Assembly (NCBI RefSeq): GCF_041248615.1
Contig: NZ_CP158426.1
Reading direction: 5' to 3' (one strand)
DNA: 64,000 bases
Origin: Escherichia coli
Lineage (GTDB): Bacteria; Pseudomonadota; Gammaproteobacteria; Enterobacterales; Enterobacteriaceae
Every line of letters begins with the position of its first letter. Within the stretch, counting starts at the first letter, position 1. The notes under the pieces are model-generated. The model searched no databases and was not told the DNA's origin. It saw only the letters and a list, made by a program, of their open reading frames with translations. Made by a program: the position numbers and the translations under genes. Positions 40,740-43,700 of the stretch are shown here, piece by piece.

Positions 40740-43700
40740 ACAAACAAAGGTGTTGTATTGCCATTTTCCGGGTTAATCATCGCAATACGATCTGCCTGCA
40801 TCAGGATCTGACTCTGAATTCCGTCAGACGTATTTTCGATTCCGGCACCAATACCTGCAATATAGAGACGTCCATCCCGTGTCTGCTGCAGCTTCACAGC
40901 CCACATGCTGTTCAGGTTCCGGCGCGTGTCCTCCTGAACTTTCTGTATCTGCTCAATGCTGGCATTCCAGGATCCCAGTTTTTTATCCGTGCTCTGTTTG
41001 ATCTGACTTCCCTTATCATCAACATACTGTCTGATCTGCGCTATCTGTCGGCTGTTCTCCTCCGTGCTCCTGCTTACTGTCTGCCGGATTTCGCTGCCCA
41101 TCCTGTCAACTTTTCTGTCAACTTCCGCAATGGCCATTGACTGTTCACCGCTCTTTTTCGCCACAACCGTGCTTATTTCCGCACTTTTATCATCAACATA
41201 CTGCCTGACCTGCGCTATCTGTCGGCTGTTCTCCTCCGTGCTCCTGCTTACTGTCTGCCGGATTTCACTGCTCACGCTGTCAACTTTCCTGTCGACTTTC
41301 GCAATGGCCAGCGACTGTTCACCGCTCTTTTTCGCCACCAGTTCCGTTATGCTGTTTTCAGACGCCGTGATTTTTTTCGTCACCTCAGCGATATCACGCT
41401 CCGCACGCTGCCTCACATCTTTCTCCAGCTGCGTCATTTCGCGGTTAATCTCATTCTCCAGTTGCTCAACTTCAGTGCGCCGTGCAGAGGCATCAATGCG
41501 TTCATTGATCTCCCGTCCCAGATGCGTTTTATTTATCGCCCCCCTGAAAAAATCCAGGTAACCTTCGGCATCATCGCTCGCCCGACCGACGGCCTCCACG
41601 AATGTCGATTTGCCGACTGTGTTCACACTGCGAACGTAAAAATAATAATCATGGCCCGGCTTAATATTCTGGCCGGAGACAAGCCACTGACTTCCGGTAC
41701 CAAGATAACGGGCTGTGGTTTCAACCTGCCTGATATCAGCAATCCGCTTTTCCGAAAACCAGAACTCAAACTGTACCGTCGGATCATAAACCGCAAGATG
41801 CGGCGTGGCGGTTATCTGAAAATAGCCCGGCGTCAGCTCAATCCGCGATGGCGCTGCCGGTGCGGCAATCCGGAACGATACCGACGCCGGATCGCCCTGC
41901 TGCCCCCACGCATTTACCGCCCGGACTGTCAGACTGTAATTTCCCAGAGCCAGCTGCCTGAAGCGGTATGTGGTTTCCGTCGTCCGGGCCGTGCTGACCA
42001 GCCGCTCACTGCCGTCATCCGCTGCCACGGTCAGGCGAAGCATAAAGCTCACGCCCTTCACCACCTTCGGCGTATCCCAGCGTGCCAGCACCTGGTATTC
42101 CCCGCTGTCTGCGGTGACTTCTGCGGTCAGGTGTTGCACTGCTGGCGGCGTGACACCATTCACCGTGCCGCTCTGGTCGCCGTCAAAGTACGCCCCGTTA
42201 TCCACGATGGCCTCTTTTTCCGGTACATGCTGCACGGCGGTGATGGCATACGTGCCGTCGTCGTTCTCACGGATACTCACGCAGCGGAACAGGCGCTGGC
42301 GCAGCGTCGGCAGCTTCAGCCCCCACACGCTGTACTCGGCAACGCCGTCAGGAACCCGGCTCACTTTCACCTTCACGCCGTCGGTGACGGACTGAACCTC
42401 CACGCTGACCGGATTGCCACTTCCGTCAACCAGGCTTATCAGCGTGGTACCGGAGGATGGCAGCGTGATTTCACGGTCTAGCGTCAGCGTCCGGGTCTGG
42501 CTGTTCACCGCCAGCACACGACCACCGGTGCTGATACCGGCATAGTCATCATCACAGATTTCAATGACATCGCCCGGTACATGGCGAAGCCCTTCAGCAC
42601 CCACGCTGAAATCCACGGTCTGCGTCTCCAGCAGTTCTGTTTTAATCAGCCACAGCCCGGCGCGGTGTGCCTGCCCCCGGCTGGTACAGCCAAAGGCATC
42701 CATCTTCGTGACGTTACGACCGTAACGGGCAATGGCCTGCGTGTCCTCCACAAGCTCTGTCGCCGTCTCCTGGCCGTTATCCGGGTCACTCCAGTTCACC
42801 TCAACGGCATTATGGCGGTCCTTCAGGGCGCTGAAGCTGTAGCGGAACGGCGCGCCATCATCCGGCATCACCACATTACTGCGGTTATAGGTCCACACCT
42901 TATCCGACGGTCGGTCCTGCACGAACGTCAGCGTCTGCCCGTTCCATACCGGCATACAGCGCATCGCCGAGCAGAAATCACTGAGCACATCCCACGCCTT
43001 GCGCTGTGTGGTCAGCCAGGCATTACAGGTGATGCGCGGCTCCGTGCCACCAGAGCCGTCCGGCACTGACTGGTCGCAGTACTGGCCGATGACATACAGC
43101 GCCCATTTGTCCACATCCGCCGCACCAAGACGTTTCCCCATGCCGTAGCGCGGGTGGGTCAGCATATCCCACAGACACCAGGCCGGGTTATCGCTGTATG
43201 CCGGTTTAAACGTTCCGTCCCAGATACCGCTGTATTGCCGCGTCTGCGGGTTATAGTTCGACGGCACCTGCAGAATGCGCCCGCGAAGATGATAATTACG
43301 GCTCACCTGCTGGCTGCCGAACTGCTCCGAATCCACCTGCACACCGACCAGTGCCGTGTTCGGGTAGCACTGTTTCACATCGATGATTTCGGTGTATGAC
43401 GACCAGAGCGTTTTGTTCTGCAGCTGGTCTGTGGTGCTGTCCGGCGTCATCCTGCGCATCCGGATACTGAACGGGCGCGGCGGCAGGTTACCCACCACCA
43501 CCGGGGCCAGATACTGCGAGGTGGTTTTTCCCTTAATGGTGATGTCTTTTTCCGTTAACCAGCGACCGTTACGCTGTATCTGAACCAGCAGGCGGACTTC
43601 CGACGGATTCCGGTCCCCCTTTGAGGTGGTTTCCACCAGTGCCTGCACACCGAAGGTCAGGCGCAGACGGTCGATGTTTGCCGACGTGATGGTCCGGGTG

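What the first reader, a model, noticed from the sequence alone, without database searches (positions are those of the whole stretch)
41020..41345. Tandem 177-bp duplication in J upstream of the IS insertion
A 59-aa coiled-coil-like unit is duplicated in the distal part of J, which in lambda-like phages forms the central tail fibre and determines receptor binding. Together with the IS insertion this marks the J distal region as a recombination hotspot.
Basis: seen in the sequence. Interest (0 to 1): 0.3.

Follow-up and report, generated by a model that had tools for sequence, protein, structure and literature searches.

The report
Duplicated helical segment in phage tail fibre
A prophage tail-tip gene (lambda-type J) carries a real in-frame tandem duplication of a 58-amino-acid helical unit that should lengthen the shaft of the central tail fibre; relatives have one, two or three copies, so it is an ordinary repeat-length polymorphism and not a new kind of element.

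Summary
The repeat is real. TRF finds window 41013-41338 with period 174 bp (not 177), 1.9 copies, 92% match and no indels. It lies on the minus strand inside a lambda-type J gene.

In codon phase the units are J aa 884-941 (41177-41350) and aa 942-999 (41003-41176). Each is 58 aa, not 59.

The units sit in the stretch that aligns between the two halves of lambda gpJ's alpha-helical shaft, between FNIII-2 and the beta-prism. They are not in the receptor-binding domain.

- The identical 2-copy allele occurs in 21 of 5426 complete E. coli genomes, so it is not an assembly error.
- It is not universal. A single-copy form is present in 725 genomes and in phages PhiR40_1 and PhiR49_2.
- Strain AR_0085 has three copies. 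Its middle copy is a B-start/A-rest hybrid, which is the signature of unequal crossover.

The unit consists of two 29-aa sub-repeats. Hydrophobic periodicity is 3.63 (29/8), so each unit adds 16 helical turns in phase. That is about 8.6 nm if the helix is continuous (inferred).

J here is split by an IS1414 insertion with an 8-bp target duplication. That insertion is found in only one genome of the collection and is an independent event. Interest is low to moderate.

The parts
41013..41338 (-). Tandem repeat as detected at DNA level (period 174 bp, 1.9 copies, 92% identity)
   Evidence: TRF; the repeat finder; blastn
41177..41350 (-). Copy A in codon phase, J aa 884-941 (ITELVAKKSGEQSLAIAKVDRKVDSVSSEIRQTVSRSTEENSRQIAQVRQYVDDKSAE)
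41003..41176 (-). Copy B in codon phase, J aa 942-999 (ISTVVAKKSGEQSMAIAEVDRKVDRMGSEIRQTVSRSTEENSRQIAQIRQYVDDKGSQ)
40916..41002 (-). Older degenerate 29-aa sub-repeat (IKQSTDKKLGSWNASIEQIQKVQEDTRRN), J aa 1000-1028. It is also present in single-copy relatives and in the 78-aa linker of Lambda_2E9
   Evidence: stacked 29-mers; alignment
41399..41464 (-). Older, diverged 11-aa (33-bp) duplication QLENEINREMT / QLEKDVRQRAE, J aa 846-867. It is absent from single-copy relatives. AR_0085 carries one more, near-perfect copy
40892..41551 (-). Whole alpha-helical-shaft-like linker of J (aa 817-1036, FFRG...MWAVK, 220 aa) between the second Ig/FNIII domain and the Phage_Tail_Tip beta-prism
40740..43999 (-). 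5' part of J (aa 1 to about 1087). The mechanical ORF runs on into the IS to 40577
39425..40739 (-). IS1414 (IS256 family), 1315 bp, imperfect 30-nt terminal inverted repeats, flanked by the 8-bp target-site duplication ACAAACAA (39417-39424 and 40740-40747). Transposase ORF 39459..40667
38771..39424 (-). 3' part of J (rest of the beta-prism plus the Ig_GpJ_C receptor-binding domain). Removing the IS and one target-duplication copy restores an intact 1301-aa ORF

Best explanation
This is a genuine, lineage-specific, in-frame tandem duplication of a 174-bp (58-aa) unit inside the alpha-helical shaft of a lambda-type tip attachment protein J, the central tail fibre.

Shown:
- The unit consists of two 29-aa sub-repeats from an older array.
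- Relatives carry 1, 2 or 3 units.
- The 3-unit allele is a hybrid product of unequal crossover between the two units of a 2-unit allele.
- The 2-unit allele occurs in intact J ORFs in other strains.

Inferred:
- The region forms a continuous three-stranded helical bundle, as lambda's shaft does.
- Because 58 residues equal 16 turns at the observed 3.63-residue periodicity, each unit is inserted without shifting the hydrophobic seam.
- Each unit lengthens the shaft by roughly 8.6 nm. The shaft would then be about 4 times as long as lambda's.
- Length is probably tolerated, and may be selected to set how far the receptor-binding tip reaches through the surface polysaccharide layer.

In this window the gene is currently dead, because an IS1414 inserted later and independently about 90 codons downstream of the repeat.
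For: - Repeat statistics.
- Gene identity.
- Position relative to lambda gpJ: query 1-23 aligns to lambda 817-839 and query 197-271 aligns to lambda 842-917. About 173 extra residues therefore sit inside lambda's alpha-helical shaft. The shaft is defined as residues 809-861, a three-helix bundle, in PMC11101478.
- Length series of the FFRG..MWAVK linker: 78 aa (Lambda_2E9), 151-153 aa (PhiR40_1, P0005, P0009, one unit), 220 aa (window and strain 135, two units), 289 aa (AR_0085, three units).
- Frequencies in 5426 complete E. coli genomes: 2-unit form in 21, 3-unit form in 1, single-unit PhiR40_1-type shaft in 725.
- Units A and B are closer to each other (26/174 nt) than either is to the single unit of PhiR40_1 (52-59/174).
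- The AR_0085 middle unit is B-type at diagnostic sites 5-12 and A-type from site 39 onward.
- Intact 2-unit J ORFs of 1301 aa (ECCNB12-2) and 1169 aa (B771).
- Hydrophobic periodicity peaks at 3.63, with power 133 against a shuffle mean of 35 and SD of 13. There is no proline.
- The glycine in KKSGEQS is not conserved in single-copy relatives (KKNEDQT, KKNDELS).
- The AF2 monomer model is helix over residues 32-122 and 129-239 of the 257-aa segment.
- Substitutions at hydrophobic positions between the copies are conservative: L to V, L to M, V to M, V to I.
- Excising the IS restores the ORF.
Against: - The oligomeric state and the continuity of the helix were not tested. The AF2 model is a low-confidence monomer (mean pLDDT 54.5).
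- No isolated phage in the phage collection carries the 2-unit allele, so there is no evidence that a virion with it is infective.
- Some carriers are clearly decaying prophages: IS1414 here, IS66 in strain 135, and an N-terminally truncated J in LR-31. This fits neutrality as well as it fits selection.
- The 21 genomes include 8 assemblies of identical length (5,067,659 bp) that are probably one strain, so independent occurrences are fewer.
- The unit edges are much more diverged than the interior (15 of 26 differences in 22 nt). The original join is therefore not a clean head-to-tail copy, and its mechanism is unresolved.
Confidence: 0.8

Rival explanations
1. Neutral length polymorphism. 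The repeat-rich coding DNA slips or recombines, and the extra unit has no effect on infection. It merely persists in prophages, many of them defective.
For: The allele is rare (21 of 5426 genomes). Several carriers have a disrupted J. No cultured phage has the allele. Other rod-like phage proteins in the same window also carry in-frame tandem repeats, which suggests a generic mutational process.
Against: The two copies have diverged by 15% at the nucleotide level, yet they keep the reading frame, the helical periodicity and hydrophobic residues at core positions. Intact 1301-aa and 1169-aa ORFs exist. All observed insert sizes (11, 29 and 58 aa) are close to whole numbers of helical turns.
Confidence: 0.4
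2. The duplicated unit is itself a receptor-binding or host-range determinant. Duplication would then change which receptor is bound.
For: The unit lies in the C-terminal third of J, the part loosely associated with host range. In lambda the shaft takes part in the receptor-triggered conformational change (PMC11101478).
Against: The receptor-binding domain is the C-terminal Ig_GpJ_C domain, about 170 residues further on (PMC11101478). The same 2-unit shaft is found with two unrelated C-terminal ends. The sequence is a low-complexity amphipathic helix.
Confidence: 0.07
3. The 29-aa sub-repeats are helix-loop elements that pack antiparallel. A 58-aa unit would then add a helical hairpin, giving a thicker or knobbed shaft and not extra length.
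For: Each 29-mer has a polar stretch (AKKSGEQS or SRSTEENS) that could be a loop. The AF2 monomer model breaks the helix once, at VSRSTE in copy A. A 58-aa insert would preserve chain direction in a hairpin model.
Against: The glycine is not conserved in relatives. Inserts of 11 aa and 29 aa (P0020) also occur, and these would invert or break a hairpin topology. There is no proline. The AF2 model has helices of 91 and 111 residues running through most of the polar stretches. AlphaFold3 predicts that the C-terminus of T1's central fibre, which includes the equivalent repeat-containing region, extends about 370 Å from the tail tip (PMC11945409).
Confidence: 0.12
4. Assembly artefact, or an ancient feature fixed in all homologues. 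These were the first reader's own refutation conditions.
For: Draft assemblies often break inside this repeat: many partial proteins start or end within it.
Against: The identical 761-bp region with both copies is found in 21 complete genomes. The copies differ at 26 positions, so they cannot be a collapsed or expanded read pile. Single-unit and three-unit relatives exist.
Confidence: 0.01

Closest known systems
Lambda gpJ alpha-helical shaft (residues 809-861; PDB 8XCJ/8XCK, 8IYK; PMC11101478)
   Same: It occupies the same position in the same protein family, between FNIII-2 and the beta-prism. Its N-terminal end (FFRGAINKTHLG, lambda 817-839) and its C-terminal end (lambda 842-866) align with the lambda shaft.
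   Different: The linker here is about 220 aa, against 53 in lambda. The extra ~173 aa are built from 11-aa and 29/58-aa repeats that lambda lacks.
J of Escherichia phages PhiR40_1 and PhiR49_2, and the matching prophage allele present in 725 complete E. coli genomes
   Same: Same shaft module at about 57% amino-acid identity. The 29-aa sub-repeats occur in the same order.
   Different: They have one 58-aa unit instead of two and lack the 11-aa duplication. The linker is 153 aa.
J of E. coli AR_0085 (WP_249940372.1)
   Same: Near-identical allele. Units 1 and 3 differ from window units A and B by 1 and 3 nt respectively.
   Different: It has three units, with a recombinant middle unit. It also has an extra 33-bp copy and a different C-terminal end without Ig_GpJ_C.
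T1 central fibre protein gp33 (PDB 9L9P; PMC11945409)
   Same: It is a J-like protein. Its region between the FNIII domains and the tail-tip domain is long, helical and visibly made of tandem repeats (alignment). AlphaFold3 predicts that its C-terminus protrudes about 370 Å from the tail tip.
   Different: The repeat sequence and period are unrelated. That region is unresolved in the cryo-EM map.
Length variation of rod-like phage proteins by in-frame tandem duplication, for example tape measure proteins and fibre shafts (from general knowledge, not tested here)
   Same: Same principle: whole structural repeats are added or removed by unequal recombination, which changes a physical length.
   Different: I found no paper describing this for the J shaft in the searches run. 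The library does not cover all of the literature.

Membership tests
Lambda-type tip attachment protein J (gpJ) | Domain series: hub domains, two FNIII/Ig domains, tail-tip fibre (beta-prism), C-terminal receptor-binding Ig domain | tested here: met
   Pfam finds FNIII-A_GpJ, Phage-tail_3, Ig_J, Ig_J_second and Phage_Tail_Tip in the 5' part, and Phage_Tail_Tip remainder plus Ig_GpJ_C in the 3' part. All are above the curated cut-offs except the split Phage_Tail_Tip piece. phmmer to lambda gpJ chains gives E = 1e-45.
Lambda-type tip attachment protein J (gpJ) | Gene order in the tail module (tape measure ... J, lom, side tail fibre) | tested here: met
   The tape measure ORF 46377..48956 (TMP_2, Tape_meas_lam_C), the Ail/Lom ORF 38104..38703 and the tail-fibre ORF 36233..38038 (phage_tail_N plus collagen repeats) are all on the minus strand around J. 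The small genes between H and J were not individually checked.
Lambda-type tip attachment protein J (gpJ) | Intact, expressible gene | tested here: not met
   J is split by IS1414 at 39425-40739. It is intact only after in-silico excision.
Trimeric alpha-helical shaft / coiled coil | Amphipathic helical periodicity without helix breakers | tested here: met
   The periodicity peak is at 3.63 residues, about 7.5 SD above shuffles. There are 0 prolines in 220 aa. The AF2 secondary structure is nearly all helix (low confidence).
Trimeric alpha-helical shaft / coiled coil | Parallel three-stranded assembly, continuous along the repeat | not testable with these tools
   Only monomer prediction is available. 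The trimer is inferred from lambda gpJ (PMC11101478).
IS1414 (IS256 family) | Mutator-type transposase, terminal inverted repeats, 8-bp target duplication, embedded astA ORF | tested here: met
   Transposase_mut E = 3e-119. Identity to annotated IS1414 copies is 99%. The inverted-repeat arms are 30 nt. The target duplication is ACAAACAA. A 38-aa astA ORF lies at 39836..39952.

The most novel reading that the evidence does not exclude
The J shaft repeat may be a fast-evolving length dial. Unequal recombination among 29/58-aa (and 11-aa) helical units would generate central fibres of different reach (1, 2 or 3 units, about 8.6 nm per step). Selection would then match fibre length to the thickness of the host's O-antigen or capsule layer, which is known to block J from outer-membrane receptors in a lambda-like phage (Gifsy-1, PMC12312913). 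A shaft four to five times as long as lambda's would also have to change how the receptor signal and the fold-back of the shaft are transmitted to the tail tip.
Probability: 0.15. Interest if true: 0.55.

Novelty: new member of a known kind. Interest (0 to 1): 0.25.

Why it matters
If the shaft length of J is functionally tuned, copy number of this unit would be a simple genetic handle on how far a lambda-like phage reaches through surface polysaccharide. That would be useful for engineering host range, and it bears on how a receptor signal travels up a much longer shaft than lambda's.

As things stand, the finding mainly documents a clean natural series of 1, 2 and 3 units with a visible unequal-crossover product. 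It also has a practical consequence: the repeat fragments J in short-read assemblies.

Tried and rejected
- **Solved structure for the repeat.** phmmer of the shaft alone against PDB sequences gave only chance-level hits. Lambda and T1 chains match only the flanks, or match loosely.
- **AF2 model.** The monomer model of the shaft was too low in confidence (pLDDT 54.5, pTM 0.27) to justify a fold search. Only its secondary structure was used.
- **How the first duplication junction formed.** I compared the unit edges with the start of the downstream 29-mer by eye, using the sequences. They share the heptamer AGCACGG, but no simple in-register crossover reproduces the junction. The origin of the first duplication is left unresolved.
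- **A single-unit allele of the same lineage.** This would be the reciprocal crossover product. None was found among 5426 genomes or in the protein searches.
- **Published description of repeat or length variation in the J shaft.** Literature searches found none. This is absence in the searched library only.
- **Wider distribution of the unit.** Searching 1.84 billion representative proteins with one unit gave only 13 hits, all E. coli J-like.

Full report
**Observation**

The region contains a tandem direct repeat.
- TRF reports window 41013-41338 with period 174, 1.9 copies, 92% matches, no indels and score 575.
- The repeat finder reports two 152-nt copies at 93% identity, spaced 174 nt apart.
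- blastn of one unit against the whole window finds only the sister copy (E = 2e-61). Everything else is at noise level.
- Shuffled windows give longest exact repeats of 15-18 nt, so this is not chance.
The period is 174 bp, not 177, and the unit is 58 aa, not 59.

**Gene context**

The repeat lies on the minus strand in ORF 40577..43999. Pfam identifies this ORF as a lambda-type tip attachment protein J, with FNIII-A_GpJ, Phage-tail_3, Ig_J, Ig_J_second and the first half of Phage_Tail_Tip.

The ORF then runs into an insertion sequence.
- The IS carries a Mutator-family transposase (ORF 39459..40667).
- It is 99% identical to annotated IS1414 copies.
- It spans 39425-40739, with 30-nt imperfect inverted ends and an 8-bp target duplication ACAAACAA.

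The rest of J, comprising the remainder of Phage_Tail_Tip plus the Ig_GpJ_C receptor-binding domain, continues at 38771..39424. Deleting the IS and one target-duplication copy in silico restores an uninterrupted 1301-aa J.

The exact IS-J junction is found in a single genome of the collection, NZ_LT599825.1. That genome is evidently the source of the window.

Neighbouring genes are the expected ones: tape measure, Lom, and a side tail fibre with collagen repeats.

**Anatomy of the repeat**

In codon phase, copy A is J aa 884-941 (41177-41350) and copy B is aa 942-999 (41003-41176).
- They differ at 26 of 174 nt and 12 of 58 aa.
- Fifteen of the nucleotide differences are packed into the 22 nt at the unit edges.
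- An interior block covering aa 29-47 is identical.

Each 58-aa unit is itself two 29-aa sub-repeats. A further degenerate 29-mer follows (IKQSTDKKLGSWNASIEQIQKVQEDTRRN, aa 1000-1028), and a half 29-mer precedes the units.

Upstream there is an older, diverged 11-aa duplication, QLENEINREMT / QLEKDVRQRAE (aa 846-867).

The whole 220-aa stretch from FFRG to MWAVK has these properties:
- It has no proline.
- Its hydrophobicity spectrum peaks sharply at 3.63 residues, which equals 29/8. The power is 133, against a shuffle mean of 35 and SD of 13.
- An AF2 monomer model is of low confidence (pLDDT 54.5) but is helix almost throughout.

**Position in the protein**

phmmer against PDB sequences aligns the first 23 residues of the stretch to lambda gpJ 817-839. 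It aligns the last ~25 residues plus the following beta-prism to lambda 842-917.

In lambda, residues 809-861 are the alpha-helical shaft. This is a three-helix bundle that clamps the FNIII-2 domains from below. It unravels and folds back on receptor binding (PMC11101478).

The window's J therefore has about 173 extra residues inserted inside the shaft, and the duplicated units are part of that insert. The receptor-binding domain is about 170 residues further downstream, beyond the IS.

**Relatives**

| Allele | Units | FFRG..MWAVK linker | Occurrence |
|---|---|---|---|
| Lambda_2E9-type J | no full unit | 78 aa | |
| PhiR40_1, PhiR49_2, P0005, P0009 | 1 | 151-153 aa | |
| PhiR40_1-type shaft DNA | 1 | n/a | 725 of 5426 complete E. 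coli genomes |
| Window, strain 135 | 2 | 220 aa | identical 761 bp in 21 of 5426 genomes |
| AR_0085 | 3 | 289 aa | 1 genome |

- Eight of the 21 two-unit assemblies have the same length and are probably one strain.
- Intact 2-unit J ORFs exist in ECCNB12-2 (1301 aa) and B771 (1169 aa).
- AR_0085 also carries one more 33-bp copy.
- Copies A and B are closer to each other (26 differences) than either is to the PhiR40_1 unit (52-59 differences). The duplication therefore arose within this lineage.
- A search of 1.84 billion representative proteins with one unit returned only 13 hits, all E. coli J-like. One of them (P0020) has an extra 29-aa duplication.

**How the copy number changes**

At the 26 sites that distinguish A from B, the three AR_0085 units read as follows:
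- Unit 1 matches A at all but one site.
- Unit 3 matches B apart from two synonymous changes of its own at the unit start.
- Unit 2 is B-type at sites 5-12 and A-type from site 39 onward.

This is exactly the product expected when unit B of one 2-unit copy pairs with unit A of another and a crossover falls between nucleotides 12 and 39 of the unit. The step from two to three units by unequal homologous recombination is therefore shown.

The origin of the first duplication is not resolved, because the A/B junction is much more diverged than the interior.

**What it most likely does**

This part is inferred.
- If the shaft is a continuous parallel three-helix bundle as in lambda, 58 residues are 16 turns at the observed periodicity. 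An added unit then keeps the hydrophobic seam in register.
- At about 1.48 Å per residue, each unit adds roughly 8.6 nm.
- The other observed inserts (11 and 29 aa) are also close to whole numbers of turns.
- Substitutions at hydrophobic positions between the copies are conservative.
- The glycine in the polar KKSGEQS stretch is not conserved in relatives. This argues against an obligatory loop.

The plausible consequence is a longer central fibre. Whether that is selected or merely tolerated is open. [quoted passage not shown]

Arguments for neutrality are the allele's rarity, its absence from cultured phages and the decayed state of several carriers.

- The coiled-coil-like nature of the unit and its lineage-specific status are supported.
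- The statement that this part of J determines receptor binding is not supported.
- The 'recombination hotspot' idea is only partly supported.
  - The repeat is recombinogenic, and the conserved segment downstream of it joins two different C-terminal modules: Ig_GpJ_C, or a short end followed by two small ORFs.
  - The IS1414 insertion, however, is an unrelated transposition event restricted to one genome.

**Comparison with known systems and verdict**

This is a member of the gpJ family carrying an ordinary kind of mutation: in-frame tandem duplication in a fibrous segment. T1's J-like fibre gp33 also shows tandem repeats in the equivalent region (PMC11945409). I found no paper describing copy-number variation in the J shaft, but the principle is familiar.

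Interest is low to moderate. The finding is a correct but routine observation, with a neat natural 1/2/3 series that could be exploited experimentally.

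Noticed in passing
window 39836-39952 (-), inside IS1414 (39425-40739): The IS1414 copy that splits J carries an intact 38-aa [41 protein letters not shown]. 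From my own knowledge this matches astA, the EAST1 heat-stable enterotoxin gene embedded in the IS1414 transposase gene. Its identity was not checked against a database here.
   Followed up: partly
window 5349-5883, in ORF 4748..7699 (-): There is a second in-frame tandem duplication: period 261 bp (87 aa), 2.0 copies, 94% identity. It lies in a 983-aa tape-measure-like protein (Pfam PhageMin_Tail) of what looks like another phage tail module in the same window. Tape-measure duplications would be expected to change tail length.
   Followed up: partly
window 34124-34368, in ORF 34009..34917 (-): A tandem repeat of period 99 bp (33 aa), 2.5 copies, 97% identity, lies in a 302-aa ORF downstream of the tail-fibre genes. 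The only Pfam hits are weak and below cut-off, to the YadA stalk and head repeats.
   Followed up: partly
window 36508-36655 and 36942-37573, in ORF 36233..38038 (-): The side tail fibre protein (phage_tail_N domain) contains 45-bp (15-aa) tandem repeats, up to 14 copies. Pfam scores them as collagen triple-helix repeats. This is the G+C-rich stretch of the region.
   Followed up: partly
L001 (AR_0085) 2769-7407 and L007 (B771) 2269-6700: The same duplicated-shaft J allele also occurs with a different C-terminus. That form ends shortly after the Phage_Tail_Tip domain (…KKLTVDFARVTGDIRSDNFHSGSPGWRL…RLGRL) and lacks Ig_GpJ_C. It is followed by two small ORFs (74 and 220 aa) with no Pfam match, which may be a separate receptor-binding module.
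   Followed up: partly
L002 (strain 135) 853-3465: An independent IS66-family insertion truncates the receptor-binding end of an otherwise identical 2-unit J in another strain. This is a second, separate IS hit in the same gene.
   Followed up: no
proteins P0002, P0003, P0004, P0006, P0008: Many database entries for this J are partial proteins from short contigs of 470-1726 bp that start or end inside the 174-bp repeat. This suggests the repeat routinely breaks short-read assemblies and hides its own copy number.
   Followed up: no
protein P0020: One representative has a 29-aa duplication inside the shaft (IAEVTKKITASENSITELVAKKSGEQSLA, twice). It also has a second 29-aa duplication in the beta-prism region ([29 protein letters not shown], twice). 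Whether these are real or assembly artefacts was not determined.
   Followed up: no
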